In this document: in pieces, positions 7,302 to 25,996 of the stretch
Position numbering within the stretch: the stretch's first letter is position 1
Layout of the letters: the number at the start of each line of letters is the position of its first letter
Origin: a virus
Reading direction: 5' to 3' (one strand)
Length of the DNA: 64,000 bases
IMG/VR virus record: IMGVR_UViG_3300027881_000008
Location: 1 to 64,000 of that record
The notes under the pieces: model-generated
Databases searched by the model: none
Seen by the model: the letters and a program-made list of their open reading frames with translations, nothing else
What the model was told of the DNA's origin: nothing
Made by a program: the position numbers and the translations under genes

Positions 7302-8375
7302 ATGGCCACATACGCTAAGAGCAAGGCTCGTCGCCGGAGAAAAGGCGAGAGCGAGGCTGCCTTCGCCAAACGCATCACGCGCCTCGACCGCGTGAAACAG
7401 AGGCGCCAGGGGAAAAAGGACCACGACGCGGACCTACAGATCGACGAAGCTTCCGCGTGCGCCGAACTCGTGCTCACCAAGCAGCACGCTATCCAGTCAG
7501 ACGTTTCCGTCCTCGACGCCCGTGAGCTTCCATCTCCTCAAGAAAAAGGAGCGCAGTGGCGCCGGGCTCAGGCTGCGCACTTGGAGCGGGTCGCTGAGAT
7601 CGAGGAGTCGCTCCGTGCCCTGGATGGCGTGTCCCCGAGAGACCCTGCGCCAAGGGTGGTGGTGCCCTCCGCTAGTGCCGAAGTGGTAGTGCCGGCGGCG
7701 GGGAAGAACGGAGTGGTAAAAAAGGAGGGGGGGGACGGAGTACCATCCCCCCTCCTTATACCCCCAAATGATCCCCCTCCCACAGGGTCCAACAGCCCGA
7801 TAATAAAAGAAAAAGAAGAAGAGAAAAAGACCCCTTCTGAAAAAGCCTCTGAAATGAGGGATCATTTGGTGCCAAATGATCCCCCATTTGGCGCCGAAAT
7901 GATCCCCCAAATGATCCCCGCCGATCCGGGAGACGAGAGGGGCCCGCCCGAGGGGGACTCGGTCCTCTCTCGGTTTGACTTCGCGGCAATGTCCCTGCTG
8001 AGCGGTTGGCTCTCTCAGGCCCGCGTCTCTGTCCTCTGTCCCCACCCTCTCTCGCTCACCTTCGGCGCGTTCGAGAAGGAGGCGCTCCGAAGCGCCGTGT
8101 TGAGTATAGCTGGCCCGACCTACGACCTGGGAGAGAGAGCGCAACCAGCAGACTCTGCTCTTCGCGAGTTCGTGGGCCGGCTCTCCGTGGGCTTACGGGA
8201 GATGGGTGGGCGCGTTTGGTCCGTCCCCAGGTTGCTCCAAGCGTGCGAGCGGGCCACCGCGGTGCTGAGGGTTCCTGGGGCCGCTGACCCAGAGCTGGTG
8301 CGGCGGCGCTTTGAGCGACAAGTCGTCGGGGAGTTGAGAACGGGAACTTTTGCGATTCTAGGGAACGGGCGATGA
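7302..8375 (+). CDS. Putative replication initiator (lambda O-like position)
   Basis: Directly upstream of and coupled to the helicase; contains internal iterons and an A-rich tract. No recognisable catalytic motif. Confidence 0.5.
   Translation: MATYAKSKARRRRKGESEAAFAKRITRLDRVKQRRQGKKDHDADLQIDEASACAELVLTKQHAIQSDVSVLDARELPSPQEKGAQWRRAQAAHLERVAEIEESLRALDGVSPRDPAPRVVVPSASAEVVVPAAGKNGVVKKEGGDGVPSPLLIPPNDPPPTGSNSPIIKEKEEEKKTPSEKASEMRDHLVPNDPPFGAEMIPQMIPADPGDERGPPEGDSVLSRFDFAAMSLLSGWLSQARVSVLCPHPLSLTFGAFEKEALRSAVLSIAGPTYDLGERAQPADSALREFVGRLSVGLREMGGRVWSVPRLLQACERATAVLRVPGAADPELVRRRFERQVVGELRTGTFAILGNGR
7764..7919 (+). repeat. Putative replication origin: AAATGATCCCC iterons plus A-rich tract
   Basis: Direct copies at 7766, 7874, 7897 and 7909; inverted copy GGGATCATTT at 7858; purine/A tract 7801-7830. 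Confidence 0.6.
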
Positions 8376-9805
8376 GCGAAGAAGAAGAGAAACTACCGAA
8401 GACGAGCTACCGCGACCTCCTGCTGTGGAGGGCCAACGGCCACGAGGTGGACGAGGTGGAACTCGGACGCTGGCGGCGGGAGGAGGAACTCATTCGGTGC
8501 GCCATAGCCTACTCCTCTCATTTCAGGGGTGTAGCGGTCATACCTAAACACTTCCTTGCGCCTCTGCATGCGCTGGCTTGGGAAGCGATCATGCAGCTCG
8601 TGGAAGACGACCCCTACCGAGGACCGGCCCAAGAGGCGGACGACGCCCGTCTGGACACGGCGGTCATGTTGAGTCTCATGCGGGAGCAGAGCGACGAGCT
8701 TGCCGGCGGGCACCGCGGCGCTGGGTGGATTTTCGCCATCGCTCAAGAGAACCCGGTGAACCCTCGTTACGCCCTCCAACACCTGGTGGTGGAAGTGCGG
8801 CGCCACCATCGCATCAGGTTGTGGGAGGTGCAGGGGTCGGCCCTTCGCCGTAGGGTCTCCACGGACAAAGACCTGGCGTCACTCGAGTTCGACTTTGCTC
8901 ATTTTGGCATGGAGATGGCCTTGGCGTCCCAGGGCGAAGGGAGGGTAGACGTCCCGCTAGAGGAGTTTGACTGGGATCCTCACTCCGACGTGGCAGCGTC
9001 GCTGGTTCCGACGGGGATCAAGATCATCGACAGAAGCGCGGGGGGCGGCCACGGGCGGGGAGAGATGCTCGTCTGGGGAGGCGGCACCGGCCACGGCAAA
9101 AGCTACGCCGCGCGCTCGCTTCTCAAGGCGCAGACCGAACTCGGACAGCGAGCGCTCTACATTAGCTGCGAGGACGCTAAGGAGCTGATGTTTTGCCGAA
9201 CCGTCGCCGACTACTCGGAGCCTAAGCTGGCGCCCCAGGCCGTTCGTCAGAAGACTGCCGATCCCGAGGTAGTGGGACGCGCAATCACCGCCATGAAGGT
9301 CGCGCAGGCCGGCCGCATTCACGTCATCGTGCGGAAGAAGCCAACCATCTCGGAGGTCATGAGCGCAATACACACCTACCGTTACGTGGAAGGAGTCGAC
9401 CTCGTCATCGTGGACTACCTACAGGCGATCCGCGAGGACGAGCCCATGACGAACAAAGTTCAGGAGATGGCCTCTATCACTAGCAAACTCAAGCGCTGCT
9501 TTACCGACGCGGACGTCGCCGGCGTGGTGTTCAGCCAGTACTCGCGGGAGAGTTACAAGGACGGAACGGAGCCTGGGCTCAACGCGTGCAAGTACTGCGG
9601 CGACATTGAAAACGAAAGCGAGATCATGGTGATGATGTGGCGGACGCCGAGCGGTGAACTGATGGTCAAGTTGCCCAAGGCAAAGTGGTCCGCCACGCGG
9701 GACGTGGTTTACGCGATAGACGTGGACCCGACGACGGGCTGCCACCGGGGATGGCTCCCGGCGGAGAGAAGAGAAGAACCCGAAAAGAAACGGAGCAGAA
9801 GATGA
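8372..9805 (+). CDS. dnaB: DnaB-like (SF4) replicative helicase
   Basis: Walker A GGTGHGKS, YISCED, Walker B VIVDYLQ, FSQYSRE and GDIENESE. Confidence 0.9.
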   Translation: MSEEEEKLPKTSYRDLLLWRANGHEVDEVELGRWRREEELIRCAIAYSSHFRGVAVIPKHFLAPLHALAWEAIMQLVEDDPYRGPAQEADDARLDTAVMLSLMREQSDELAGGHRGAGWIFAIAQENPVNPRYALQHLVVEVRRHHRIRLWEVQGSALRRRVSTDKDLASLEFDFAHFGMEMALASQGEGRVDVPLEEFDWDPHSDVAASLVPTGIKIIDRSAGGGHGRGEMLVWGGGTGHGKSYAARSLLKAQTELGQRALYISCEDAKELMFCRTVADYSEPKLAPQAVRQKTADPEVVGRAITAMKVAQAGRIHVIVRKKPTISEVMSAIHTYRYVEGVDLVIVDYLQAIREDEPMTNKVQEMASITSKLKRCFTDADVAGVVFSQYSRESYKDGTEPGLNACKYCGDIENESEIMVMMWRTPSGELMVKLPKAKWSATRDVVYAIDVDPTTGCHRGWLPAERREEPEKKRSRR

Positions 9806-9981: not shown

Positions 9982-10246
9982 GCAAGACGAAAGAGGGCCC
10001 GACGGGGTCATGGAGTGCGGCTCCTGCTTGACCGTTTTTATCGTCGAGCTTGAGGGGGACGACCTCCACCCGTTGTCGGCCGCAGCCGACCGTTTGTGCG
10101 GCGGGTGGCACGGGTCTCCAGTGATCTGCGCCAGGTGTTCGTTCCCCGTATGTCGAGGGTGCAGCACGGAACCTGGGAGGCGGTCCAACATCCACCTTTC
10201 CTGCGCTGGAGGCCAGCCGGGCGTCACGGGGCGCTCATGGAACTGA
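9968..10246 (+). CDS. Small zinc-finger protein
   Basis: CGSC, CARC, CRGC and HLSC motifs. Confidence 0.45.
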   Translation: MPVPEQDERGPDGVMECGSCLTVFIVELEGDDLHPLSAAADRLCGGWHGSPVICARCSFPVCRGCSTEPGRRSNIHLSCAGGQPGVTGRSWN

Positions 10247-11256
10247 CGCTCTGGTCCGTAGGCCGCCTGTTCGGGAAAAGCCTTCCTCCCCTCGGGAAGC
10301 GGAGCTGGTGCCCCATACGGAAACACCGGAAGTCGGCCAAGTCGTTCACCGTCTTCCGCGCCAGGAGCGGAGCGGTGCTCTACAAGTGTCACTCCTGCGA
10401 CCCCCCGGTTGACGTCGGAGACGCGGTCGCCCTGTACGCGGCGCTCGACAACACCGACCGGCGCTCTGCCTGGGCTACTCTCAAGGAACAGGGCTACGCG
10501 GTGCCGGGCCTGAGAGAAAAGGGCGCGCCTTTCCGGCCCGCGCGGCCAGCGCCAGTTCGTCGGCCCGTTGTTCCGACGCGCGGCGAGGAACCGTCGGCTA
10601 CTATTCCCCTGGACCCGCAGCGGTGGGAGGAACACCTGGCGCGGCGCGTGGGGGCGGTGGAGAAGCTCGCGGCGACGCGGCTGCTCGACCCCTCCGTCCT
10701 CCGGGAACTCGACGTAGTGGACATCGACGCCACCCATGTGGGGTTCGGGTACCGAGAGCCCACGCGCGGCGTCGCCTGCCGCGTGAAGGTGCGGGGATTG
10801 GAGAGGAAGTCCTTTTGGGTCGAGCCGCGCGGCGATAGGGGCAAGGCGCTCGCGCCGCTTTATCTCGCCCATGCTCTTGACCAGTCGCTGCGTTTCGCCG
10901 TGGTTCACGAGGGCGAGCTCGACGCCCTCACGCTGGCCCAGGCCCGTCTTCCGAACTCGGTGTCGCTGCCAGATGGCGCCCGCTCGGCGGCGACCGTGGA
11001 CCTGCGACCGCTGAGAAACTACCCGCTTTGGCTGCTAGCGACCGACGCCGACGAGGCGGGGAGACGCGGCGCCGAGGTTCTCGAACGACGAGCCGCGCGC
11101 CTTGGATGCCAGGCGGTTCGCGTCCGCTGGAAGGCGGGAGGCAGCCTTTTCAAGGATGCCAGTGAGGCGTGGGTCGCAGGCGCCCGCCGGGCGACCATGG
11201 CCGCCTGCCTTAGTGACGCCTGCCACGCCGCGCTGGGCTACCGGGTCGAGATATGA
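10237..11256 (+). CDS. DNA primase (CHC2-type Zn finger plus TOPRIM)
   Basis: WCPIRKH...YKCHSC, HEGELDALTL, DADEAG and KDASE. Confidence 0.88.
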   Translation: MELTLWSVGRLFGKSLPPLGKRSWCPIRKHRKSAKSFTVFRARSGAVLYKCHSCDPPVDVGDAVALYAALDNTDRRSAWATLKEQGYAVPGLREKGAPFRPARPAPVRRPVVPTRGEEPSATIPLDPQRWEEHLARRVGAVEKLAATRLLDPSVLRELDVVDIDATHVGFGYREPTRGVACRVKVRGLERKSFWVEPRGDRGKALAPLYLAHALDQSLRFAVVHEGELDALTLAQARLPNSVSLPDGARSAATVDLRPLRNYPLWLLATDADEAGRRGAEVLERRAARLGCQAVRVRWKAGGSLFKDASEAWVAGARRATMAACLSDACHAALGYRVEI

Positions 11257-11825: not shown

Positions 11826-12298
11826 AGTGGGGGGACCCCAGGGATTTCTTCGCCGAACGCTGTGCTGACACCGAGGACGAGCGGGAGTGGATGAGCGGCG
11901 GTACGCTTTACGCGCACTACCGCCGGCGCTGCTTCCGGTGTGGCGTTCGAGCCCTGGGACTGGGGCGCTTCCGCGCCGCGTTGGAGAGGCGCACCGAGGG
12001 CGTCGTGGAAGAGGTCCACGGCCACATCATCTACCCGTTGGAGATTTTGGACGAGGAGCACTGGGAACTCGCCGAGGGACCCCCTACGACGCAGGAGCCC
12101 GCTCGCGCACGCGCCTCGTTGAGGGTGTTGGTCACTCAGGCGTACCGCGACGTTCCCATGCCAGCGGGGGAGGTGGTGCGGTGGCTTGAGCCCACCTGGG
12201 GGGAGAAACAACGCTTGGAGCCTGACGACCTGGTGGTGGAGTGGCGGGGTGCTCGGCGCTACATTAAGAGTCGAGCGGCTGAGGTGGTAGACTCGTAG
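11822..12298 (+). CDS. Protein with D5/P4-primase C-terminal-like winged helix
   Basis: FFAERC...SGGTLYAHYRRRC...ALGLGRFRAAL pattern. Confidence 0.55.
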   Translation: MKWGDPRDFFAERCADTEDEREWMSGGTLYAHYRRRCFRCGVRALGLGRFRAALERRTEGVVEEVHGHIIYPLEILDEEHWELAEGPPTTQEPARARASLRVLVTQAYRDVPMPAGEVVRWLEPTWGEKQRLEPDDLVVEWRGARRYIKSRAAEVVDS

Positions 12299-12334
12299 CG
12301 CCGCGCCGTGGTACCGCCGTGGTATAGCCACACC

Positions 12335-12826
12335 ATGGGCCAGCTCGTCGACATAGCAAAACGGATTCTTAGCGAGGCGTTCTACCCCGAGGTGGGAGAC
12401 CTACCTCCCGCAGACGCATCGCTCGGGGGCGACGTGGCTGACCAGGCCGCCGCCATTTGGGAGCACAAGCGCCTCTCCCGCATCAACGCCGAGTACTTCG
12501 TGGTCATTGAGCGCATGGAGGCAGAGCGCGACGAGTGGAAAGAGATGTTTTTCGAGCAGAGCCGCCAGCACCTTGCGGCCCAGGCTATGTTGTCTCGCCA
12601 GCTCGGGGAATCGCGCCAGCAACTCCGCGCGGCGGTCCAACAACTCAACTTCTACCGAAAATGTGCGGACCACGAGCCGATTAAAGAGCCGGCCGGACTG
12701 GATGCGAGCCCCTCGGCGATCCCCGACGGGTACAAGGCTAAGATGGACGCCCTGGTGGCTGGCGCCCCGGAGCCCACGGACGGGAAAGCTGCGCGCGCCC
12801 GCATCGCGAGCGCTCAAAAGTCTTGA
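12335..12826 (+). CDS. Coiled-coil hypothetical protein
   Basis: In-frame ATG at 12335; heptad-like centre. Confidence 0.55.
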   Translation: MGQLVDIAKRILSEAFYPEVGDLPPADASLGGDVADQAAAIWEHKRLSRINAEYFVVIERMEAERDEWKEMFFEQSRQHLAAQAMLSRQLGESRQQLRAAVQQLNFYRKCADHEPIKEPAGLDASPSAIPDGYKAKMDALVAGAPEPTDGKAARARIASAQKS

Positions 12827-12850
12827 CGGCTGGAGGGAGCCCGGTATGCT
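12823..12850 (+). promoter_or_regulatory. Sigma70-like promoter for the structural operon
   Basis: TTGACG-N16-TATGCT about 80 nt upstream of the 12932 start. Confidence 0.5.
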
Positions 12851-12931
12851 CGTCACGGATCTACAGTTGTTGGCTGCACCTTCGGGTTAAGCGGGGCCAA
12901 CGCGCTGTGCCAAGAAAGCACAGGTGCGTTT

Positions 12932-15343
12932 GTGTCTCGCCGAAGAGCGTTAGCAAAGAAAATTACGCGTAAACAGGCTCGCGCCTACGACCGCACCGTT
13001 CCCAATCCGATGGGCGTCACCGCCATCGCCGCGGTGAACGGCCCGGGTAGCTATGCCCGCCGCTACGAGGCCACTCGCCAGCTTCTTGAGCGCGAGCCCT
13101 CCAGCCGACGTCGCCCGGTTCGCCCCAACAAGGCCACGCGCCGGCGCATCAAGACTTGGGCCGAGTTCCAAAAGCTGGCGGCCGTGGCCAACGCTCCCCC
13201 CAAGAAGCGCCGGGCGATGTACAGGTCGTACCACCAGAAGCATACCGGCAGGCTCCCGCCCGCCTCGGCTTGGACAGAAGCGAAGCCCAAGGCGAAGCCC
13301 AAGGCGAAGCCCAAGGCCAAGGCCAAGGCCAAGCCCCGGGCGAAAGCGAAGCCCAAGCCTCGCGCAAAGGCTCCCTTGAAGCGAGCCAAGAAGCGCCAGA
13401 CGAAGGCCGATTGGGTGCGCATGAAGCGCCGCGAGAAGCCTGGCGCCAGCGACGAGCAACTGAACGCTTGGTGGAACAGCAAAAAAAGAGGAGACGAGCG
13501 TCAGCGGGCTATCAGGGCGTCCAAACAGGGGCGAGCAGCGGTTGCCCGCACTCCCGCTGGCCGTGAGGCCGCGCGTAGGAAGCGGATGCTGGGGGCGCAG
13601 AAGAAGACCGGCAAGAAGACCGGCAAGAAGACCGGCAAGAAGCGCCAAACGAAGGCCGACTGGGAGCGCGCACAACGGCGCAAACACCCCGGGGTGAGCG
13701 ACAAGCAGCTCGCCGCCCGGTGGAAGTTGGGGCAGGCGTCCAAGAAGCGCTACGCAGCTTCAAAGCGCCAGCGAGCCGAGGCCAAGCGAAAGAAGCAGGT
13801 CCGGCGCTACGGCAAAGGAAAGTTCAAGGCCGCGCGAGCTCGCGTCGGCAGCGGGGTGCCCACCGACTACTGGACCTACATGTACCGGGACAAGGGCGGT
13901 CGTATGCGGAAGATCCCCGTGTGGGCGCTCGCTGGCTACAGCAGTAGCCGCGCCGCGCAGAAGGTACGAGACGAGGGAAGCCCACGCCGCCAAAGGGCGC
14001 TGGAGAAGCGTCTCGAAGCAATCCGAGTACGGCGGGACAAAGCGGTCGCCGTGGCGAAGAGACAGATCGAAAGAGGCACTGGCCGTTACGCCATGTTCTC
14101 ACCTAACCAAGAACGCACAATTACCTACGAGGAGTGGGAAGAAGACATGAGAGCAAACAGCCGGCGTCGCCGCCGTAAAAAGTCCACGAAGAAACGGCGC
14201 ACCCGTCGCGTTCGCCGCAATCCTGTCCACGCGAGCGCCCGCAAGGCTGCCCCCAAGCGCCGTCGCCGCCGTAAGGCGTCGACCCGCAAGGGAATGGTCC
14301 GCACCACGGCACGTCGAGCTTTCGAGTCGAATCGCCCGAAGCGTAAGCGCAAGCGCAAGAGCACCCGCAAGGGCATGGTGCGCCGCACCTCGCGTCGTGC
14401 GTATCGAAAGAACCAGGCCGCCACGTTCGGTGGGCGCTTCGTAGAGGTGCTTCAGATCGGTGGCGTGGTCGCAGTGGGCTTTGTTGTCCAGAAAGCTGCG
14501 ACCACCGGCATCGTGAAGGCAATCGGAGACAAGTTCCCCGAGAGCGTCTTGAAGTTCAAGGGCTCGCTCGTCGGTCTCGGCGTAGCTGCCGCCGGCGTGC
14601 TTATTGGGAGCGGGATGAAGTCCGCGGCGATGCAGAACTTCGCCGCTGGTATGGGCGCCGGCCTCGTGCACACGGTCGCGAAGGAGGCTCTGGCCGCTTT
14701 CGCCCCTGACTATGCCGACTACCTCGGTGCGCTTCCATCTCAGTACACGAACGCCGAAGGAAACCCGCAGTACAGCGGTTACGGCTCGTATTACGAGTTC
14801 AGCCCCCATCAGGTTTTTGATGGGGTCGGCGAGTACTACGAGACGGCTCCCGCGGCCGTTCCGACGAGCGGCTTCGGCCAGCTTCCCCAGCTCTACCAGG
14901 CTGCGGCGGCATACGGCCAGGCGCCTCCGGGAATCCCGCAGCTCACGCAACAGGCGGCCGGCTACGGCAACCTGGACGTGAACCAGCTCACGCAGGCGGC
15001 AGCTGGACTCGGCGCACCGATGCTCACCCAGGCCGCCGCAGGCGCCATGGGCGAGTATGTGGTGAGCGGAGGCAAAGGGATCGGCGAGTACGAGGAGGTC
15101 ACTCCTGAATACCAGAAGCCGACCACCACGGACGAGGGGATCCACCCCGACCTGACGAGCGCCGAATACGCGCTGTCGATTGCGGAAGCGGCGGCTGGCG
15201 TCGGCGCGTTCGGCGACAGCAACGTACCGCTGCAGAGCATCGTCAATCCAACCGGCCACCCCGAGGCCATCCCAGACATGCCAGGCGGCAGCCGAGCTGG
15301 CACCTTCGCTGGCCCCAACGGAGTCTTCGGACCCGGACACTGA
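12932..15343 (+). CDS. Very basic, membrane-anchored putative DNA-condensing core protein
   Basis: About 490 aa of K/R-rich sequence (AKPK and KKTG repeats, duplicated KKRQTKADW..PG.SD.QL.A.W, poly-Arg), then 2-3 hydrophobic helices, then an acidic G/A/Q tail with many G-phi-G motifs. Possible internal ATG at 14147. Confidence 0.7.
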   Translation: MSRRRALAKKITRKQARAYDRTVPNPMGVTAIAAVNGPGSYARRYEATRQLLEREPSSRRRPVRPNKATRRRIKTWAEFQKLAAVANAPPKKRRAMYRSYHQKHTGRLPPASAWTEAKPKAKPKAKPKAKAKAKPRAKAKPKPRAKAPLKRAKKRQTKADWVRMKRREKPGASDEQLNAWWNSKKRGDERQRAIRASKQGRAAVARTPAGREAARRKRMLGAQKKTGKKTGKKTGKKRQTKADWERAQRRKHPGVSDKQLAARWKLGQASKKRYAASKRQRAEAKRKKQVRRYGKGKFKAARARVGSGVPTDYWTYMYRDKGGRMRKIPVWALAGYSSSRAAQKVRDEGSPRRQRALEKRLEAIRVRRDKAVAVAKRQIERGTGRYAMFSPNQERTITYEEWEEDMRANSRRRRRKKSTKKRRTRRVRRNPVHASARKAAPKRRRRRKASTRKGMVRTTARRAFESNRPKRKRKRKSTRKGMVRRTSRRAYRKNQAATFGGRFVEVLQIGGVVAVGFVVQKAATTGIVKAIGDKFPESVLKFKGSLVGLGVAAAGVLIGSGMKSAAMQNFAAGMGAGLVHTVAKEALAAFAPDYADYLGALPSQYTNAEGNPQYSGYGSYYEFSPHQVFDGVGEYYETAPAAVPTSGFGQLPQLYQAAAAYGQAPPGIPQLTQQAAGYGNLDVNQLTQAAAGLGAPMLTQAAAGAMGEYVVSGGKGIGEYEEVTPEYQKPTTTDEGIHPDLTSAEYALSIAEAAAGVGAFGDSNVPLQSIVNPTGHPEAIPDMPGGSRAGTFAGPNGVFGPGH

Positions 15344-15483
15344 AACCACTGCGTCCGACGGGGAGCGAGCTGGCCTTACGCTCCTCGTCACATGGCGCAA
15401 ACAAAAACTAGGCCAGGGCCGTAGCGGAACCAGGCCGCTTTATCAACGGAAGCCCAGAGAGAACAGAGAACACCATCCCTAAA

Positions 15484-16278
15484 TTGACAAATGTGCGAGA
15501 GCGCGTCCATCAGCCCTTTCGCGATACCCTAGTGCGGACGGCCGGTACACAGACCGGTAACGTCAGTGACAACACCAAGCTGTTTACCGTTGCGGGTAAA
15601 CCAGAAGGTGCAACGAACTTGCCCAACGGATCGACGCTTCCAAGCGATCAGTCGTTCGTCGTGCTGGCTCTGCGCGTCTTCACATGGTTCCGCAACAGCA
15701 TCCAGCGTCCCATGCAGCAGGGCGCGGCCCCAGGCCGGCTCGTCATCCCGCTCCCCGACGGAACCACCATCTTCGCCGGCAACGGCGACTTCAACCTTCC
15801 CTTCGGCGGTGGCCCGGTCACCGGCGCTGCCTTCGCAGCCGTGCTGAACGGGCAGGGAATCGGAGACGTCAACGACGTTCACCGATTGAACTGGCAAGCT
15901 GAAGAGCAGCTCCTATGGAGCTACGGTGCGGGCGATAAATTCTCCCTCACATCCATGCCGTCAGCGTACTTCCCATATGGCGGCGGGCTTCACGGCCAAT
16001 TGCCCTGTTCGACGGATTTGATTCTGTGGAACAACGGCATGCCGTCCCAAGAGGGCATCTTGCGTCTGGCAAGAGCAATCTTGATTCCCCCGCGACAGAA
16101 TATCAAGGCGGAAGCCAACATTGCGCGCCTCGATACCGGCCCCAATGCGGCGACCCTCGCCACCACCCAGGGAGCGCGTGATATGTTCTCCCTTCGCGAC
16201 AACCTCAATGCCCCGGACCTCATCAACAAGGTTATTAGTCTGACCTTTGACGGCTTGTTCAGCCGCGACGTGCAGTGA
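15484..16278 (+). CDS. Candidate major capsid protein (single jelly-roll-like)
   Basis: Beta-strand-like segments (TNLPNGSTLPSDQSFVVLALRV, ILIPPRQNIKAE, ISLTFDG). Follows the core protein, has a long structured leader and a downstream terminator. Start may be ATC at 15475. The fold is inferred. Confidence 0.55.
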   Translation: MTNVRERVHQPFRDTLVRTAGTQTGNVSDNTKLFTVAGKPEGATNLPNGSTLPSDQSFVVLALRVFTWFRNSIQRPMQQGAAPGRLVIPLPDGTTIFAGNGDFNLPFGGGPVTGAAFAAVLNGQGIGDVNDVHRLNWQAEEQLLWSYGAGDKFSLTSMPSAYFPYGGGLHGQLPCSTDLILWNNGMPSQEGILRLARAILIPPRQNIKAEANIARLDTGPNAATLATTQGARDMFSLRDNLNAPDLINKVISLTFDGLFSRDVQ

Positions 16279-16392
16279 GCCGTTAGCAGCGCGCCCGTTT
16301 TATATGCAGCAGAAAAAAAGTAGCAGAACATAACGGCGCGTTGCGCCACACCAAGTCGCCCGGCCTGGCAAGCGCGGGGCCTATTTTCGGGT

Positions 16393-16429
16393 CCCGACCA
16401 AAACCGGGTCGGGCGCCTCGGTTTTTTTC
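16393..16429 (+). terminator. Intrinsic terminator with an overlapping alternative hairpin
   Basis: AAAACCGGG-N8-CTCGGTTTTTTT overlaps CCCGACC-N7-GGTCGGG. Confidence 0.5.
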
Positions 16430-16490
16430 TCCGCCTCTTTTGGCGGTGTCGCCCCAGGCAAGACGCGGTCGTGGGGAATGAAGGAGCGTC

Positions 16491-17522
16491 ATGTACGGAA
16501 ACCAATACGACCCAGGCTTCGCCCAAGCAGTGCAGCAGCTGCGCGCAGAGATCAATCGCAACGCGGGCGGCCTTCGCAAGTACACCGACGAGCAGATGGC
16601 CAAGATGGTCGGACGCCTGGACGAGCTGAGCCGCGTGACCAGCGCCATGAGCGCCATCCGCTCGGGGGCCACCAAGGACCCGGGAGTGCGCCTCATCGAG
16701 GACATACCAGGGCGACGGGTGCCCTACGTCATGCTCGTAGATATACCCCTAGGTGCCGACACGACGAGCATTCGAGAAGGGTCCGTCACCATCTCTCAGG
16801 AGGGACCGTTCGTCGCCGTGCGTCGCATGGCCACCTTCCAGTCGGCCTACGAGTTCCAAGTCACCGACCCGGTGAGCAGCCAAGTGGCGCGTTTCGCAGG
16901 CCGGTCGTTCGGGCGCTACCGCCCCATTCACTCTGTCTGTGACACCAACGACAGTCAGCATAATGCGTGGTCCGACGCGAGCCGTTGGTACCTAGCGGCG
17001 CTCACCAACCCCGACGCGGTGCCAGGCCCCGCGGCCGAACTTCCCTCGGCTGCGCTCAGTCTTCCGAGCAACATGTCGAGCTTCCGCACCATGGAGTTCG
17101 ATGGGCGTATCAGCGTCATCAACGCTGGCTCGAGCTACCCCCGCCAGAACATCAGCGTGCCGTCTAGCTTCTGGGCCAGCGAGTGCAACAGTCCCGTCAC
17201 CCTAGGCGCTTTGGACTTCTTCGAGCGCGGTGAAGTGCTGACCGTTCGGGTTCAGCCCAACCATGTGTCGAATCCGCCAGCCGGAAACGTCGATGGCGAC
17301 TGCATCTTCCCTAACGCGGCGGCCCCAGGTTGGCCCTTTGTCGAGGGCCAGTACGACTCGCACGAAGGGATTTGTACTCCCGACGCAAGCACCCTCGCTA
17401 CCATCCGACCGTTTGAGCCAGCCCTCATCGCCAACGACCCCGTGGCCCGGCTTCCTGACGGTATCCTCACTATCGCATGGGAAGGCTACCGAATCATTCA
17501 GCCTGTTGGGCCGGTTGGATGA
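16491..17522 (+). CDS. Candidate second capsid/penton protein (N-terminal coil plus beta-rich domain)
   Basis: AAGGAG RBS; GSVTISQEGPFVAV, FFERGEVLTVRVQP and LTIAWEGYR beta-type segments. Confidence 0.5.
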   Translation: MYGNQYDPGFAQAVQQLRAEINRNAGGLRKYTDEQMAKMVGRLDELSRVTSAMSAIRSGATKDPGVRLIEDIPGRRVPYVMLVDIPLGADTTSIREGSVTISQEGPFVAVRRMATFQSAYEFQVTDPVSSQVARFAGRSFGRYRPIHSVCDTNDSQHNAWSDASRWYLAALTNPDAVPGPAAELPSAALSLPSNMSSFRTMEFDGRISVINAGSSYPRQNISVPSSFWASECNSPVTLGALDFFERGEVLTVRVQPNHVSNPPAGNVDGDCIFPNAAAPGWPFVEGQYDSHEGICTPDASTLATIRPFEPALIANDPVARLPDGILTIAWEGYRIIQPVGPVG

Positions 17523-18304
17523 GCCATATCCTCGACCGCCGTGCGCCGGAGCAGTTCATCCGTGAGCTGTCCCAAGAGGCGCGCCTCGTCCGTCAGGGCG
17601 CGGCAGGACAGGAGGCCGGCCCCCCAGGGCTCGGTCCCGAGCCTGCGGTGGTCCATCAGCCGGGGGGCGAGCTCCTCAACAAAATCCAAGACCCGGCGTT
17701 CGATACGGTCGAGCATCTTTTTCGGGCGCTCCCCGAGGACAGTTGGTTCTCCCCTACCACCTCGACCAAGCGCCCCATCAAGTTCGAGTTCGGCGTCTTC
17801 ACCGTTCCCCAGAGCCAGTATTTTCTGGTGACCGACTACGAGTTCGTGGCGCTTCGGCAGAGCGGCATCGACCCCTTCGACTTCATGCAGGCGGCGCCGT
17901 ACCGCTTCAGCGGCTTCATGGGGTTCGACATCACGCTCGATGGCCGGCGCGTGAGTAACCTCATGTACCAGCTCGACCCCGCCCCAGTGCAGTTCTTCCG
18001 TCAGGCGTTCGCGTCGCCCTTCGATCCTCGCGCGCCCGCCGCGAGCTTCAACCAAGCTGCGGCCAACAGCTTCGGCGCCGTGGCCGGCGAGGGCACGTCG
18101 CTCTTGCCCGTCCGCCCCAACGTACAGGGAAGCCGGAACATGCCCTTCACCATGATCGCCGAGCCTGGCACCAAGGTTGCGCTCTCGTGCGTCATCTTCC
18201 GCCGCGTGACTGCCGCTCTCGCGGGCCTCCAGGCGAGCGTGTCTGGCTACTCGATCCACGCCAACACTATGAGCGCACTGCTCAACCGAATGAGGCCCAG
18301 ATGA
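17519..18304 (+). CDS. Candidate third jelly-roll-like structural protein
   Basis: FEFGVFTVPQSQYFLVTDYEF, IAEPGTKVALSC and ASVSGY; ATGA-coupled. Confidence 0.5.
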   Translation: MSHILDRRAPEQFIRELSQEARLVRQGAAGQEAGPPGLGPEPAVVHQPGGELLNKIQDPAFDTVEHLFRALPEDSWFSPTTSTKRPIKFEFGVFTVPQSQYFLVTDYEFVALRQSGIDPFDFMQAAPYRFSGFMGFDITLDGRRVSNLMYQLDPAPVQFFRQAFASPFDPRAPAASFNQAAANSFGAVAGEGTSLLPVRPNVQGSRNMPFTMIAEPGTKVALSCVIFRRVTAALAGLQASVSGYSIHANTMSALLNRMRPR

Positions 18305-18965: not shown

Positions 18966-19098
18966 GATTGACGAGCCGCAAGAGCCGGGCCCTCGGTTTG
19001 GTGTTCCGGGGGCTGTCCGCAAAAGTGATGGCCTTCCTCAGCCGCTCCGGCCGGGAGCTCGACTCTTGCGGCTCGTCGAAACACGCGGGGGAGGCGTA

Positions 19099-20037
19099 AT
19101 GTACCGCGGCATAGGCCGGCCGCTGGGCGCGACCACGCGGGGCCTCGGTGCCCGAGAGTGGGACGACGTCCAGGAGTGGTGTCCTGGGGTGTTTGTGGAG
19201 TCCGAGAAGGACTTCTGTCCTTTTTCGCGCGCGCTTTGGTCGACCGACGAGGTCTACGTCATGCGCTTCCATGTTACTGGACTCGACGGAGGCATTCAGA
19301 CGGCCTCCCAGGGGCTCAGGTGGGCGAACGCTTACGGCAACACGCTCATGACGGCGTGCCTGCCCTTCGGCTGTCCTTCCATCGAACGCCAAGACGTCAA
19401 GGGGATCGTGTTTGACAGTCAGGGCGGACCGGGCGTCTACGGCGTCGACCTCGTCGTGACCACGCAGGAGGGCGGTGCGCCCGTCTTTGGTCAGCGGGGG
19501 GTGGAAGCTACCGTTAAGATGCTCAACAAGGACCCGGACCTGCTCAGCGTCTGGCCGAATTTGCACGTAAACGACTTCCAGCCTCTTCTGATGCTCGACG
19601 AGACGGCAGCGCAGAAGGCTAGGATCACCGACTGGCGCGCAGCGCCGACGGTTTGGAGCTGGGAGCTTTGGGAACAGAACGAGGACGCGCCCGAGAGGAC
19701 CAGGGGAAAGACCGACGCCTACGGAAAAGGCGAAGGGGTCTGGCTCGGTGGGACGGCGGCGCACCCCCAGGCGCGGCTCAAGCCCAAGGCGCCCACCCCC
19801 GTCGGTCCTCCCACGCCCAAACCTCCCACGCCCAAACCTCCCACGCCCAAGCCTCCCACGCCCAAGCCTCCCGAGCCGGGACCGTTGCCTTCCAAGGCCG
19901 GCCTCAACGCGGGCACCGTTGCGGGGGTCGCCCTGGTCGCCGGGGTTGGATGGTTCGCTTTCGGCACACGTATTCGAGACCACCTGAGTGGCAAGAAGCA
20001 AAAGGAAAAACAGCATGTCCTACAAAAGCCTTGGTAA
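19099..20037 (+). CDS. Tail-anchored protein with globular head and (PTPKP)n stalk
   Basis: MYRGIG..RGLG; 15-nt repeats at 19807-19872; TM helix and basic tail. Confidence 0.75.
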   Translation: MYRGIGRPLGATTRGLGAREWDDVQEWCPGVFVESEKDFCPFSRALWSTDEVYVMRFHVTGLDGGIQTASQGLRWANAYGNTLMTACLPFGCPSIERQDVKGIVFDSQGGPGVYGVDLVVTTQEGGAPVFGQRGVEATVKMLNKDPDLLSVWPNLHVNDFQPLLMLDETAAQKARITDWRAAPTVWSWELWEQNEDAPERTRGKTDAYGKGEGVWLGGTAAHPQARLKPKAPTPVGPPTPKPPTPKPPTPKPPTPKPPEPGPLPSKAGLNAGTVAGVALVAGVGWFAFGTRIRDHLSGKKQKEKQHVLQKPW

Positions 20038-20689
20038 CCCGCTCGGGTCTTACTACGAGTTCAGCCCCCACCAGGTTTTCGACGGGGTGGGCGAGTATTA
20101 CGAAACAGCGCCCATGAGCGGGCTGGGGTCTTACTACGAGTTCAGCCCCCACCAGGTCTTCGGCGCCTTCGGGGCCGAGACGACCTTCAACGCCCAACAG
20201 GTCTGGGCCGACGCCCAGCTCGGTGGGAGCTGCTTCACGCCGGGAAACCCGAACTGGAAGAACGAGGCGATGCTGGGCACCTGCAACGCCGCTGGCGGGC
20301 GCGCCACCCGCGAAATCCAAGCGGCACTGAACACTCTCGGCTACTCCACTCCGCTCGACGGAAGGTTCCAGGGGGCCACGAGGGCGAACTGGAACAAGTT
20401 TATGGCCCAGCACGGGCTCTCGAGCGCAATCGGAGAGGTGCAGGAGCAGGGTCTCTTGCTTATCGAAGACCAGCTGCGCCAGGGCATCACCCCGGGGCCG
20501 GACGAGCCTAGGAAGACCAAGAAGGTCAACGGCAAGTACATCCCCGTCAACGGCGACTCCAAGGCCGGACTGGGGGCGGTGGCGGCCGTCGCGCTCGTGG
20601 GGCTCGCTGCCTTTGGCGGGTACATGGTCTACAAGAAAAAGAAAGGCGGCGCTAAGTCGCGCCGCCCGTTGGTGAGACTGAAGCCGTGA
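20015..20689 (+). CDS. Tail-anchored protein with peptidoglycan-binding domain
   Basis: TREIQAALNTLGY..LDGRFQGATRA; duplicated GSYYEFSPHQVF leader; TM helix followed by KKKK. Confidence 0.72.
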   Translation: MSYKSLGNPLGSYYEFSPHQVFDGVGEYYETAPMSGLGSYYEFSPHQVFGAFGAETTFNAQQVWADAQLGGSCFTPGNPNWKNEAMLGTCNAAGGRATREIQAALNTLGYSTPLDGRFQGATRANWNKFMAQHGLSSAIGEVQEQGLLLIEDQLRQGITPGPDEPRKTKKVNGKYIPVNGDSKAGLGAVAAVALVGLAAFGGYMVYKKKKGGAKSRRPLVRLKP

Positions 20690-20695
20690 GAAAGA

Positions 20696-20923
20696 ATGGA
20701 AACGAAACACATCATCCAGGTTTTGGAAGCAGCCAACCAGGGCTCGCCTCAGATCCTGCATGCTGCGGGCCGCGTGTTCGGATTGGGCGAGGCGGAGCGG
20801 GATGCGCTGGCGAAGCGGACGTTTCCGGCTTGGGCGGCGGGACTGCTTGGGATCTCGGTGGGGATCCTAGCGGGCGCAGCCATACAGCGGCGTTGGCCGG
20901 GGAAGATCCTTCCGGGGGCCTGA
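20696..20923 (+). CDS. Small membrane protein
   Basis: FGLG motif; single TM helix followed by QRRW. Confidence 0.6.
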   Translation: METKHIIQVLEAANQGSPQILHAAGRVFGLGEAERDALAKRTFPAWAAGLLGISVGILAGAAIQRRWPGKILPGA

Positions 20924-20924
20924 T

Positions 20925-21467
20925 ATGAGCTACGTAGGACTAGGAAACGCTTTCGGGTCGACTGTCTCGTTACCAGCAGGGTTCGACGCGGGTAAACTCC
21001 CCTATTGCGGCACTGTGCGGGCCCTTCAAACCACGTTGGGCGGCATCGGCTACGACGTCGGCAAGGTAGACGGTAAGTGGGGGACGAATACGGCCAAGGG
21101 GGCCACCGCCTTCGCGCAGGCTAAGGGTCTGAACGTGAGCGGAGGCATTACCAAGAACTTCTGTCAGGCGCTGCAGAGCGAGTGGGTGGCCTCGATGGCT
21201 CCCCCGACTCCCTCTGTCCCAGCGCCCCCGGCTCCAGTGCCGGGAGCAAAGGAACCGCCACCGGCGGGAAGGCACCCGGCTCCCCCCGCCGAAAAGGGGG
21301 CGGGGCCCGATCGACTTGACGCCTCGGGTGGCGCGCCCCCACCCCCCGTCAAGGCTGGGCTCTCGACGGGCGCTAAGGTCGCAATTGGCGGCGCGGCGCT
21401 CGTGGTCGTCTTCGGTGTCGTGGCAATCGCCAGCGGCTACGCCGACAAAGGGAGAACATCGCGGTGA
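20925..21467 (+). CDS. Tail-anchored protein with peptidoglycan-binding domain
   Basis: MSYVGLG; VRALQTTLGGIGYDVGKVDGKWGTNT; Pro stalk; TM helix. Confidence 0.8.
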   Translation: MSYVGLGNAFGSTVSLPAGFDAGKLPYCGTVRALQTTLGGIGYDVGKVDGKWGTNTAKGATAFAQAKGLNVSGGITKNFCQALQSEWVASMAPPTPSVPAPPAPVPGAKEPPPAGRHPAPPAEKGAGPDRLDASGGAPPPPVKAGLSTGAKVAIGGAALVVVFGVVAIASGYADKGRTSR

Positions 21468-22687: not shown

Positions 22688-22696
22688 GAGACCCTC

Positions 22697-23386: not shown

Positions 23387-23389
23387 GCC

Positions 23390-24604: not shown

Positions 24605-24616
24605 TGAAGGAGTGAG

Positions 24617-25243: not shown

Positions 25244-25273
25244 GCATATCCAGGTAGAAAGAGAAGACTACAA

Positions 25274-25990: not shown

Positions 25991-25996
25991 CCACCC

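What the first reader, a model, noticed from the sequence alone, without database searches (positions are those of the whole stretch)
12932..15343. Tripartite histone/protamine-like protein that could tether DNA, membrane and capsid
Seen: an H1-like AKPK tract, two copies of a ~25-aa W-containing repeat, poly-Arg blocks with duplicated STRKGMVR, then hydrophobic helices, then an acidic motif-rich tail. An in-frame ATG at 14147 preceded by GAGGAG could give a shorter isoform starting at the poly-Arg block. The gene sits directly before the candidate MCP. Inference: a genome-condensing core protein, analogous in function to adenovirus pVII, but spanning the membrane. This would imply co-assembly around condensed DNA.
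Basis: partly seen in the sequence, partly recalled or inferred. Interest (0 to 1): 0.72.

Follow-up and report, generated by a model that had tools for sequence, protein, structure and literature searches.

The report
Membrane-anchored hyperbasic phage core protein
This is a real 803-residue protein of an uncultured marine bacterial virus that joins a histone/protamine-like, extremely positively charged arm to a membrane-type segment and an acidic tail, and it most likely coats and condenses the viral DNA against an internal membrane, a job not described so far for any bacterial virus.

Summary
ORF 12932-15343 encodes an intact 803-aa protein in three parts. A basic arm (1-497) has net charge about +140. 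A Gly/Ala-rich hydrophobic block spans 499-590. An acidic Tyr/Gly-rich tail spans 591-803.

It is not a chance ORF. All 86 database relatives keep the same three-part plan, and none matches Pfam, PHROGs, NCBIfam or any PDB chain.

The gene lies directly upstream of a conserved protein whose confident model (pLDDT 89) is a single jelly-roll. Its nearest solved structures are capsid proteins of internal-membrane viruses, with SPV1 first at Z 8.0. Downstream lie 12 tail-anchored membrane proteins whose post-membrane tails are all basic. Complete relatives of 140-180 kb show no terminase, portal, HK97 capsid or FtsK/A32 ATPase match.

A 23-aa tail peptide recurs in the leader of a peptidoglycan-binding membrane protein. 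The two copies differ only at synonymous sites, and the peptide co-varies between the two proteins in two related viruses.

Best reading (about 0.5): a virion core protein that neutralises DNA and ties it to the internal membrane. The adenovirus pVII comparison is functional only; it is not a family member. The membrane-spanning topology and the 14147 isoform remain unproven.

Other agents in this scan noted the same lineage on other DNA.

The parts
12823..12850 (+). sigma-70-like promoter match (TTGACG-16-TATGCT) about 80 nt upstream of the start
   Evidence: It is the only such site in 12200-16600, against 0.4 expected from shuffles. This is a consensus match only.
12932..15343 (+). Whole gene: 803-aa tripartite protein (P0001), GTG start
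   Evidence: There are 86 relatives with the same plan. The frame is intact in strain variants from other samples, where the indels seen (12 nt, 3 nt) are in frame.
12959..13066 (+). Conserved N-terminal motif (residues 10-45, ITRKQAxSYxRxxPNxxGVTAIAxVNGxGAY)
   Evidence: N25, T30 and N36 are at least 90% conserved in the 41-sequence alignment A2. The motif is recognisable even in the sister clade.
13280..13359 (+). H1-like AKPK simple repeat
   Evidence: TRF gives period 12 and 5.4 copies. Assemblies of other samples break here.
13370..13486 (+). W-containing repeat, copy 1 (KRQTKADWVRMKRREKPGASDEQLNAWW)
   Evidence: 21/32 identical to copy 2, E 3e-13. Single or double copies of the K-x-D-[FYW]...Q-A-E-x-x-W unit occur in relatives.
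13601..13642 (+). KKTG x3.5 perfect tandem repeat
   Evidence: One unit is lost in frame in a strain variant and in P0002.
13619..13735 (+). W-containing repeat, copy 2
13805..14161 (+). Conserved non-repetitive domain (residues 292-410: YGKGKFKA..RKIPxWALxGY ... FSPN ... YEEWxxxMxxN)
   Evidence: P329, R368, F389, P391 and N392 are at least 90% conserved. No Pfam or ESM-atlas lead was found. The fold was not predicted.
14129..14149 (+). GAGGAG (14129-14134) and in-frame ATG (14147-14149): proposed internal start
   Evidence: GAGGAG encodes the conserved EEW, and the comparative support is partial.
14162..14413 (+). Arg-rich block (residues 411-494) with the duplicated STRKGMVR..RRA[FY]xxN unit, ending at invariant Asn494
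   Evidence: N494 is invariant in 41/41 sequences. Asn context: Y/M/F at position -3 is enriched 5-6 fold.
14426..14701 (+). Hydrophobic Gly/Ala-rich block (residues 499-590): helix A 503-527 (charged, amphipathic), helix B 545-563, helix C 570-587
   Evidence: G510, G516, A552, G555 and G573 are conserved. The block is homologous to that of the sister-clade long and short paralogues.
14702..15340 (+). Acidic Tyr/Gly-rich tail (residues 591-803) with all 9 G-hydrophobic-G motifs, LTQAAAGxG repeats, GEY motifs and a GVFG C-terminus
14783..14851 (+). 23-aa peptide GSYYEFSPHQVFDGVGEYYETAP shared with the leader of ORF 19988-20689
   Evidence: Identical peptide. There are 10 synonymous differences and no amino-acid change. 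It co-varies with the partner's leader in L011 and L015.
20045..20113 (+). Second copy of the 23-aa peptide, in the N-terminal leader of a PG-binding, tail-anchored membrane protein; a partial third copy lies at 20126-20161
   Evidence: Orthologue P0357 starts at MSYKSLG.
15484..16278 (+). Next gene: single jelly-roll capsid-like protein (context, not part of the protein)
   Evidence: AF2 pLDDT 89.2 and pTM 0.87. Best structural match is SPV1 capsid 6oj0_T, Z 8.0, then P23-77 VP17, Z 6.8. Foldseek top hit is SPV1, prob 0.95, E 0.065.

Best explanation
The gene encodes the main DNA-neutralising core protein of a tailless, internal-membrane, jelly-roll-capsid bacterial virus.

Proposed mechanism:
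- The roughly 500-residue arm (net +140, built of fast-evolving K/R simple repeats) binds viral DNA non-specifically by charge and condenses it.
- The Gly/Ala-rich helices that follow sit in the virion's inner membrane, on the same side as the basic tails of the other virion membrane proteins.
- The acidic Tyr/Gly-rich tail carries the same short peptide tags as the leaders of those membrane proteins. It engages a shared partner, either the capsid interior or an assembly or maturation factor.
- The genome would therefore be condensed on and wrapped by the membrane during assembly, rather than pumped into a preformed shell.

Shown: the architecture, its conservation, its gene position, the jelly-roll fold of the neighbouring gene, and the tag sharing.

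Inferred: DNA binding, presence in the virion, membrane insertion, topology and assembly mode.
For: 1. The plan is conserved. All 86 relatives have an arm of net +62 to +196 (27-42% K+R), then a hydrophobic block, then an acidic C part of 216-322 aa.
2. The plan persists in a sister clade whose capsid-like gene is only 30-34% identical (hhalign 98.4%, E 6e-15).
3. Arm sequences and lengths (about 180-840 aa) vary freely while charge is kept. Strain variants differ by in-frame repeat units. This is as expected for charge-driven binding.
4. The position is fixed, directly upstream of the jelly-roll capsid-like gene. That holds in 18 of 19 close IMG/VR loci found through the capsid gene rather than through this protein, and in more than 20 metagenome loci.
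5. The neighbour's confident model matches capsid proteins of internal-membrane viruses: SPV1 Z 8.0, P23-77 VP17 Z 6.8, HHIV-2 and HCIV-1 Z 6.
6. Twelve downstream proteins are tail-anchored, and every post-membrane tail is basic (net +1 to +45). This defines a DNA-facing side.
7. The tail's 23-aa peptide equals the leader peptide of a PG-binding membrane protein, with 10 synonymous and 0 amino-acid differences. It co-varies with that leader in two other viruses.
8. In some searches no FtsK_SpoIIIE, Pox_A32, Terminase_6N, Phage_capsid or Phage_portal match appeared in the window's contig, a 36%-complete relative or the complete 179-kb relative G001. FtsK_SpoIIIE and Terminase_6N were each tested in further complete 140-171 kb relatives, again with nothing over the cut-off. 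No Walker-A protein other than DnaB is on this contig.
9. Stoichiometry is plausible: about 1,000-2,200 copies would neutralise 50-100% of a 144-179 kb genome. That is of the order of adenovirus pVII copy numbers (500-800 for 36 kb, PMC7998265).
10. A precedent exists for shell plus lipid plus nucleoprotein core in SPV1 (PMC8459092).
Against: - No experiment or proteome shows the protein in virions or on DNA, and no RNA run was available.
- The hydrophobic helices are marginal. Helix A carries conserved K508, H520 and R521, helix B has only 16-19 uncharged residues, and helix C has a central H/Q. A soluble or peripheral helical bundle is not excluded.
- Arm charge does not clearly scale with genome size (r 0.35, p 0.43, n 7).
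- The absence of a packaging ATPase rests on Pfam-level searches that can miss divergent enzymes. One relative has a sub-threshold FtsK-like hit (16 bits).
- The window's contig is only about 52% complete.
- The basic arm could bind anionic lipids or RNA instead of DNA.
Confidence: 0.5

Rival explanations
1. Polyprotein precursor. The 803-aa chain is cut by a virion maturation protease after Asn in hydrophobic-x-x-Asn sites and/or at G-hydrophobic-G sites. This would release small protamine-like peptides onto the DNA (as adenovirus pMu gives Mu), free the arm from the membrane anchor at invariant Asn494, and remove the acidic tail tags. This is a refinement of the best explanation rather than its opposite.
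For: - The 1,241 Asn in the arms of 86 proteins have Y/M/F at position -3 enriched 5-6 fold (hydrophobic 51% against 18% background) and Pro at -1 enriched 5 fold.
- N25, N36 and N392 are at least 90% conserved, and N494 is invariant exactly at the junction of arm and hydrophobic block.
- Arm repeats are punctuated by Asn: the window's ...RRA[FY]xxN units and the sister-clade 14-aa SRRRRSRRTSxRRN units.
- G-hydrophobic-G lies within the first 45 residues of most module proteins and is rare elsewhere. All 9 copies in this protein are in the tail.
- Adenovirus core precursors pVII and pMu are processed in this way (PMC7998265).
Against: - No protease gene was identified. There is no Peptidase_C5 or C48 match at E 1, and no peptidase family among the 67 ORFs scanned.
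- The residue after Asn is not constant (P, G, K, A, Q, S, R).
- The motifs could equally be DNA- or protein-contact elements.
- No peptide data exist.
Confidence: 0.2
2. Genome-delivery (pilot or ejection) protein. The hydrophobic block forms or lines the membrane conduit through the host envelope, and the basic arm escorts the DNA end into the cell. This would resemble the phiX174 H protein or the membrane-tube proteins of PRD1, with few copies per virion.
For: - It combines membrane-type helices with a nucleic-acid-binding arm.
- It shares a peptide tag with a peptidoglycan-binding virion membrane protein that is plausibly part of an entry apparatus.
- Internal membranes act as delivery devices in PRD1-type viruses (PMC3782422 abstract).
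Against: - A net charge of +140 over roughly 500 low-complexity, length-variable residues is far more than escorting a DNA end needs.
- First place in the structural operon, directly before the capsid gene, suits an abundant component.
- A sister clade keeps both a long and an arm-less paralogue, which fits bulk roles better than a single channel.
Confidence: 0.12
3. Membrane-shaping or size-determining scaffold. The basic arm lies on the anionic lipid head groups or along the capsid edges, like the tape-measure protein P30 of PRD1, rather than on DNA. The tail links to the capsid.
For: - It combines a hydrophobic block with tags shared with membrane proteins.
Against: - Arm length varies from about 180 to 840 aa, and arm length showed no positive relation to genome size (r -0.28, n 7).
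- H1- and protamine-like repeats are typical of nucleic-acid binders.
- The basic tails of the 12 tail-anchored proteins indicate that the basic side faces the lumen.
Confidence: 0.1
4. Non-structural protein, for example one that compacts or shuts off the host nucleoid or organises viral replication. Under this reading it only happens to be encoded between the helicase-primase genes and the capsid genes.
For: It sits at the border between the replication genes (DnaB 8372-9805, primase 10096-11256) and the virion genes.
Against: - Its linkage is to the capsid gene, not to the replication genes, in loci found through the capsid gene.
- It shares tags with the virion membrane proteins.
Confidence: 0.05

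Closest known systems
Adenovirus core proteins pVII and pMu (with pVI)
   Same: - They are Arg-rich proteins that condense a dsDNA genome inside a jelly-roll-lineage capsid, in many copies (pVII 500-800 per virion).
- They are made as precursors with short Gly-containing peptides.
- The propeptides of pVII and of the membrane-lytic pVI compete for the same hexon site (PMC7998265). That parallels the peptide shared here between the core protein's tail and a membrane protein's leader.
- pMu has a hydrophobic-basic-C-terminal layout in miniature.
   Different: - No sequence relation: no Pfam hit even at E 10.
- This protein is 4 to 40 times larger.
- It has membrane-type helices and a long acidic tail, while adenovirus has no internal membrane.
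- No adenain-like protease was found.
- The host is a bacterium.
Sulfolobus polyhedral virus 1 (Portogloboviridae): VP1 nucleoprotein core inside a lipid layer and an SJR capsid (VP4/VP10)
   Same: - The inferred overall virion design is the same: single jelly-roll shell, inner lipid layer, protein-condensed DNA core, and no known packaging ATPase (PMC8459092).
- The neighbouring gene's model has SPV1 capsid protein as its best structural match (Z 8.0; Foldseek prob 0.95).
   Different: - SPV1 is a 20-kb archaeal virus, whereas relatives here are 110-180 kb and carry peptidoglycan-binding and lysin domains.
- As I recall it, VP1 is a small helical protein wrapping A-form DNA; it is not a low-complexity basic arm fused to a membrane anchor.
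- The A2 profile matched no PDB chain.
- The structural match is modest (Z 8, rmsd 3.6 A over 136 residues).
Ascovirus P64 family of large cationic DNA-condensing virion proteins
   Same: It is an unusually large (64 kDa, pI 12.2) virion protein whose basic repeat domain condenses a 100-200 kb viral genome (PMC6163548). That matches this protein in size class and in condensation by simple repeats.
   Different: - It is an insect virus protein, with no membrane helices or acidic tagged tail reported.
Linker histone H1 C-terminal domain / protamines
   Same: It has AKPK-type and poly-Arg low-complexity tracts and fast repeat turnover with conserved charge.
   Different: It has no winged-helix globular domain (no Pfam hit), it is viral, and it is fused to hydrophobic and acidic modules.
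Membrane-containing phages (PRD1, PM2, P23-77, SSIP-1)
   Same: They are tailless icosahedral bacterial viruses with jelly-roll capsid proteins over an internal membrane rich in small membrane proteins. P23-77 VP17 is the second-best structural match of the neighbouring gene (Z 6.8).
   Different: - A 2019 review of these phages never uses the words condens*, histone, nucleoprotein, DNA-binding or basic protein (PMC6356626).
- As I recall it, PRD1-type phages package DNA with an ATPase.
- tblastn against 50,697 GenBank phage records gave no match for the tail module or the neighbouring capsid-like gene.

Membership tests
Adenovirus core protein VII (Pfam Adeno_VII) | Sequence match to the family profile | tested here: not met
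   Pfam-A scans of the whole protein (E 0.01) and of four segments (E 10) returned no adenovirus family.
Adenovirus core protein VII (Pfam Adeno_VII) | N-terminal propeptide removed by adenain at (M/L)XGG-X; adenain encoded by the virus | tested here: not met
   No Peptidase_C5 or C48 match at E 1 in this contig or in a complete relative. The Gly motifs here are G-hydrophobic-G and lie in the C-terminal tail. Cleavage itself is not testable with these tools.
Linker histone H1/H5 | Winged-helix globular domain (Pfam Linker_histone) | tested here: not met
   No Pfam hit. Only the Lys/Ala/Pro-rich tract resembles the H1 tail.
Ascovirus P64 large cationic DNA-condensing proteins | Sequence or domain relation to P64 (N-terminal Cys-containing domain plus basic C-terminal repeats) | not tested
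   No P64 sequence was available from a tool. Only the abstract was read (PMC6163548). The resemblance lies in size, charge and proposed role.
SPV1 VP1-type nucleocapsid protein | Sequence or fold relation to a solved SPV1 chain | tested here: inconclusive
   The A2 profile matched no PDB chain at E 1. No structure of this protein was predicted, so fold was not compared.
New family defined here: tripartite basic-hydrophobic-acidic protein upstream of the SJR capsid gene | Hyperbasic low-complexity N-arm (at least 27% K+R, net at least +60) | tested here: met
   Net +140 with 35% K+R; all 86 members are in range.
New family defined here: tripartite basic-hydrophobic-acidic protein upstream of the SJR capsid gene | [YF]-[RK]-[RK]-N junction followed by the G/A-rich helix block (G510, G516, A552, G555, G573) | tested here: met
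   N494 and G573 are invariant and the others at least 90% conserved. hhalign to the sister-clade long and short forms gives 98.4% and 97.5%.
New family defined here: tripartite basic-hydrophobic-acidic protein upstream of the SJR capsid gene | Acidic tail with GSYYEF / LTQAAAGxG / GIGEYE motifs and a G-[IV]-F-G C-terminus | tested here: met
New family defined here: tripartite basic-hydrophobic-acidic protein upstream of the SJR capsid gene | Gene directly upstream of the conserved jelly-roll capsid-like gene | tested here: met
   The gap is 140 nt in the window. The same order holds in 18 of 19 close IMG/VR loci and in more than 20 metagenome loci.
Integral membrane protein (transmembrane helices) | At least one uncharged hydrophobic helix of 19 or more residues; defined topology | tested here: inconclusive
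   KD19 maxima of 1.68 and 1.67 fall within the range of the module's other predicted TM segments (1.61-2.52). However, helix A has conserved K/H/R, helix B has 16-19 uncharged residues, and helix C has a central H/Q. No dedicated topology predictor and no structure model were available.

The most novel reading that the evidence does not exclude
The protein is the organiser of a motor-less assembly route in a large (110-180 kb) bacterial virus.

- It is inserted in the virion membrane with its +140 arm in the lumen, where it condenses the genome as the vesicle and jelly-roll shell close around it.
- Its tail tags dock into the same capsid or assembly site as the leaders of the other membrane proteins, as pVI and pVII propeptides do in adenovirus.
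- A still unidentified protease with Asn specificity then cuts the arm at hydrophobic-x-x-Asn sites, including invariant Asn494. This releases protamine-like peptides and uncouples the core from the membrane for delivery.

That would be an adenovirus-like core and maturation logic in a phage, with a new cleavage specificity.
Probability: 0.15. Interest if true: 0.88.

Novelty: new variant of a known kind. Interest (0 to 1): 0.64.

Why it matters
Bacterial viruses are generally thought to hold naked DNA that an ATPase has forced into a preformed shell. Protein-condensed genomes are described for eukaryotic viruses (adenovirus, baculovirus, ascovirus) and a few archaeal viruses such as SPV1.

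A conserved and widespread family would change that picture. The jelly-roll partner alone has 633 database relatives, and relatives' genomes reach 180 kb. A membrane-anchored, histone/protamine-like protein in such a lineage would mean that a large phage group uses a nucleoprotein core. It would possibly also mean assembly without a packaging motor.

The finding gives a concrete, expressible handle for testing this:
- the arm can be tested for DNA condensation;
- the tail peptide can be tested for capsid docking;
- the Asn sites can be tested for processing.

It also gives a sequence marker, together with the jelly-roll gene, for finding these viruses in metagenomes. Current profile libraries miss them entirely.

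Tried and rejected
Genomic context came from the search for related loci instead.
- Family libraries: Pfam, PHROGs and NCBIfam scans of the protein and its segments found nothing, apart from a chance 14-residue Rv0078B match.
- PDB sequence searches with family profiles of this protein and of both downstream genes found nothing meaningful.
- ESM atlas: no usable hit for residues 285-412. For the neighbouring gene it gave only weak leads to PM2 P2 and PRD1 P3 (0.76-0.78).
- The GTDB genome scan with the family pattern found no relative, so no host or prophage copy was found.
- tblastn against GenBank phages found no match.
- AF2 of ORF 16491-17522 with 19 sequences was poor (pLDDT 52.9). Its fold search matched only the long N-terminal helix, so it is uninformative.
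- The ARAGORN tRNA-Gly call at 14963-15039 (-) inside the ORF is rejected, because Rfam gives no hit at E 1.
- Arm charge or arm length against genome size in 7 near-complete relatives: r 0.35 and -0.28, not significant.
- No RNA holder was listed among public runs, so expression and the 14147 start could not be examined.
- dN/dS against the nearest contig (L004) was abandoned. That contig is 99.75% identical and carries 4 gaps that shift the frame, probably an assembly error.
- No second copy of the tail module exists on this contig.
- The idea that the sister clade splits arm and anchor into two genes was rejected. The upstream gene there is itself a full tripartite protein and the downstream one an arm-less paralogue.
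- Literature searches for a described phage protein of this kind or for this lineage found none.
Full report
**1. The observation**

ORF 12932-15343 (+) is real: 803 codons with a GTG start. Its third-position GC is 0.77, like the other coding frames of this 65% GC contig.

- Residues 1-498 hold 73 K, 99 R and 32 D/E, a net charge of +140.
- Two hydropathy peaks lie at 499-531 and 538-567.
- The part from residue 499 on is net -14, and residues 601-803 hold only 3 K/R.

The named repeats are all present.
- The AKPK tract is a period-12 tandem repeat at 13280-13359.
- KKTG is repeated 3.5 times at 13601-13642.
- An AAGCGC repeat (KRKRKR) lies at 14339-14375.
- The two W-containing units are 21/32 identical, E 3e-13.
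- STRKGMVR..RRA[FY]xxN occurs twice.

The ATG at 14147 and GAGGAG at 14129-14134 exist, 12 nt apart. ARAGORN called a tRNA-Gly on the opposite strand inside the ORF. It has no Rfam support at E 1, so I treat it as a false positive.

**2. It is a conserved family, not a compositional accident**

A search with residues 495-803 found 85 proteins, with E values from 1e-191 to 1e-12. They are 444-1105 aa long, all unnamed, on contigs of up to 131 kb.

Every one has the same plan:
- an arm of net +62 to +196 (27-42% K+R);
- a hydrophobic block;
- an acidic C part of net -5 to -19.

A 41-sequence alignment (A2) shows these conserved islands:
- the N-terminus, ITRKQAxSYxRxxPNxxGVTAIAxVNGxGAY, which also validates the GTG start;
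- a non-repetitive domain at residues 292-410 (YGKGKFKA...RKIPxWALxGY...FTPN...YEEWxxxMxxN);
- an invariant Asn494 in [YF]-[RK]-[RK]-N immediately before the hydrophobic block;
- small residues G510, G516, A552, G555 and G573 in the helices;
- tail motifs GSYYEFxPHQ, repeated LTQAAAGxG, GEYxAxGxxGIGEYE and DEGIxPxLxSAExALxVAEAAAGVG, with a C-terminus ending at G-[IV]-F-G.

Between the islands the arms are unalignable simple repeats that differ from virus to virus: KKKVA, TTKRR, NRRRRR and AKPK types.

A strain variant in other samples lacks one KKTG unit in frame and keeps the frame open throughout.

Nothing in Pfam, PHROGs or NCBIfam matches, even at E 10 on separate segments. No PDB chain matches the family profile.

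**3. Context**

The contig is an IMG/VR virus record of 75,008 bp, estimated 52% complete.

Upstream lie a DnaB-type helicase and a Toprim primase.

The gene order g009, basic protein, g011 (15484-16278), g012 (16491-17522), g013 (17477-18304) recurs in more than 20 metagenome loci.

To avoid circularity I also searched IMG/VR with the g011 family alone.
- In 18 of 19 close loci, the ORF ending 116-286 nt upstream of g011 is a tripartite protein. Its arm is 326-649 aa with net +116 to +207.
- In a sister clade, where g011 is 30-34% identical, there are two paralogues upstream.
- One is a long tripartite protein of 850-950 aa (hhalign to A2 98.4%, E 6e-15).
- The other is a short form of about 250-280 aa. 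It begins with only 35-50 basic residues ending in RRN, then continues with the same hydrophobic block and tail (97.5%, E 5e-12).

**4. What kind of virus**

Across 67 ORFs, no terminase, portal, HK97 capsid or tail family reaches E 1e-3 in Pfam. None appears among the 25 PHROG families listed out of 44. Phage accessory genes are present instead: Mom, methylases, endolysins and PG-binding domains.

g011 has 633 database relatives. With a 103-sequence alignment it folds confidently (pLDDT 89.2, pTM 0.87).
- Foldseek gives no hit better than E 0.02, but the best-ranked rows are mostly jelly-roll capsid proteins.
- SPV1 comes first (prob 0.95), followed by HHIV-2, HCIV-1 and SH1, the double jelly-roll capsid proteins of iridoviruses, PBCV-1 and ASFV, and P23-77.
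- The Foldseek-independent aligner ranks SPV1 capsid 6oj0_T first (Z 8.0, 136 residues, rmsd 3.6). P23-77 VP17 follows (Z 6.8), then HHIV-2 and HCIV-1 (Z 6).
- Z 8 is borderline by the tool's own calibration. I therefore call g011 'single jelly-roll, capsid-like', not a proven major capsid protein.

Twelve proteins downstream are tail-anchored. Every one has a basic segment after its membrane helix, net +1 to +45. The largest, in ORF 21464-22687, is itself protamine-like.

Packaging and capsid families were searched as follows.
- FtsK_SpoIIIE, Pox_A32, Terminase_6N, Phage_capsid and Phage_portal were searched in this contig, in a 36%-complete relative and in the complete 179-kb relative G001. 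None matched at E 0.1.
- FtsK_SpoIIIE was also searched in nine further relatives and Terminase_6N in five.
- No match exceeded the cut-off. One relative gave a 16-bit FtsK-like hit.
- On this contig, DnaB is the only protein with a Walker A motif in a recognisable NTPase context. The regex also hit two other ORFs, which I did not follow up.

These absences are at Pfam sensitivity only.

Other agents of this scan reached the same picture on other DNA, with SPV1 or SSIP-1 as nearest. I treat that as a lead. My own fold result agrees with it.

**5. The tail carries the module's peptide tags**

The 23-aa peptide GSYYEFSPHQVFDGVGEYYETAP occurs in the tail (14783-14851). It also occurs in the N-terminal leader of ORF 19988-20689, a PG-binding, tail-anchored protein.

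The two DNA copies differ at 10 synonymous positions and at no amino acid. So the peptide itself is under selection.

The peptide co-varies within genomes.
- In L011, both proteins carry VGEFYEV[TA]P.
- In L015, both carry [PS]HEVYxAPxG.

G-hydrophobic-G lies within the first 45 residues of most proteins of the structural module (g014-g021, g027, g028). It is rare elsewhere. All nine copies in this protein lie in the tail.

The leaders sit at the non-basic end of tail-anchored proteins. The simplest consistent picture therefore puts basic segments on one face of a membrane, with the DNA. Leaders, ectodomains and this protein's tail would be on the other face, towards the shell.

That picture needs an odd number of spans in this protein. 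Family-wide hydropathy does not settle this.
- Helix B (545-563) and helix C (570-587) are plausible spans.
- Helix A (503-527) has conserved K508, H520 and R521, with only 11 uncharged residues between them.

**6. Asn punctuation**

Asn in the arms has a strongly non-random context across 1,241 sites.
- Y/M/F at position -3 is enriched 5-6 fold (hydrophobic 51% against 18% background).
- Pro at position -1 is enriched 5 fold.

The best-conserved arm residues are N25, N36, N392 and N494. Tandem units end in Asn both here and in the sister clade, for example SRRRRSRRTSxRRN.

This could mark protease sites, so that a polyprotein releases small basic peptides and the arm detaches at N494. It could equally mark DNA or protein contacts.

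No protease was found. I keep this as a variant hypothesis.

**7. Internal start**

GAGGAG encodes the conserved EEW, and Met406 is conserved as a residue.

A GGAG lies 6-12 nt upstream of that Met codon in about two thirds of the relatives that have this motif. This includes relatives with W-S or W-R instead of E-E-W. It is missing in L002 and L012.

The separate arm-less paralogue in the sister clade shows that a short form can be useful. It does not show that one is made here. I put the isoform at roughly 15-20%.

**8. Mechanism and comparison**

The best-supported reading is a charge-driven DNA-condensing core protein held at the virion's internal membrane.

About 1,000-2,200 copies would neutralise half to all of a 144-179 kb genome.

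It works like several known systems:
- adenovirus pVII and Mu, including the parallel that pVII and pVI propeptides share one hexon site (PMC7998265);
- the SPV1 design of shell, lipid and nucleoprotein core (PMC8459092);
- the large cationic P64 of ascoviruses (PMC6163548).

It belongs to none of these families by any test I could run.

A review of membrane-containing phages mentions no condensing or nucleoprotein component (PMC6356626). GenBank phage records hold no relative.

**9. Verdict**

The family is undescribed. The functional class (viral basic core protein) is known, but this bacterial-virus, membrane-anchored, tagged form is not.

Near-identical DNA recurs in seawater and marine metagenomes from at least 10 studies, so material for a direct test exists.

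Noticed in passing
window 14963-15039 (-): ARAGORN calls a tRNA-Gly(GCC) inside the ORF on the opposite strand. Rfam gives no hit at E 1, so it is a false positive in GC-rich repeat coding sequence.
   Followed up: yes
L060 1276-4068 and 4058-4798; L065 1275-4016 and 4031-4810; L066 1079-3943 and 3961-4824: In a sister clade, the long tripartite protein is followed by an arm-less paralogue of about 250-280 aa, before the jelly-roll gene. The paralogue has a short basic N-terminus ending in RRN, then the same hydrophobic block and tail. Long and short forms are therefore separate genes there.
   Followed up: partly
window 21464-22687 (+): This 407-aa membrane protein has a PG-binding match. After its membrane helix comes a 129-residue tail of net +45, with protamine-like KRRR runs and an LTSN-P motif. 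It is a second candidate DNA-facing basic segment.
   Followed up: partly
arms of all 86 family members; window N25, N36, N392, N409, N430, N467, N494: A hydrophobic-x-x-Asn punctuation runs through the basic arms. Y/M/F at position -3 is enriched 5-6 fold and Pro at -1 is enriched 5 fold. Tandem units end in Asn. It may be a cleavage or contact motif, and no enzyme was identified.
   Followed up: partly
window 19066-32795 (+): A run of 12 tail-anchored proteins, most starting with M-x-Y-x-G-hydrophobic-G leaders. Every one has a basic post-membrane tail.
   Followed up: partly
L004 (Ga0255053_10020398) 401-2808: This copy is 99.75% identical but has 4 gaps that shift the frame near residue 330. 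It is probably an assembly error rather than a broken gene.
   Followed up: partly
window 13283-13336: Assemblies of all four runs laid break at the AKPK tract. Summed contig depth jumps to 60-273 in the bin holding the tract (13284-13497), because unrelated contigs share AAGGCC-type repeats. Metagenome contigs of this gene will often be truncated there.
   Followed up: no
runs X6-X10, X12, X13, X15, X16 (coded organisms A, B, C): Runs labelled with single organisms rather than seawater hold 43-63% of the sampled words. The three that were laid (X6, X7, X10) carry a strain variant mostly 90-98% identical. This is a possible pointer to a host or holobiont, but the names are coded.
   Followed up: no
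window 16491-17522 (+): The second conserved beta-rich protein has a predicted 50-residue N-terminal helix before its beta part. The model was too poor (pLDDT 53) to assign a fold.
   Followed up: partly
G016:C1:11960-12175 (-), the 161,502-bp relative behind L072: This is the only FtsK_SpoIIIE-like signal in the lineage: 16 bits, E 4.7e-4, below the cut-off, inside a 956-aa ORF. It is worth a structure-based look as a candidate packaging ATPase.
   Followed up: no
window 12308-12826 (+): A 172-aa protein is conserved directly upstream of the basic protein in 16 loci (33-50% identity in the distinct loci). No family match was found.
   Followed up: no
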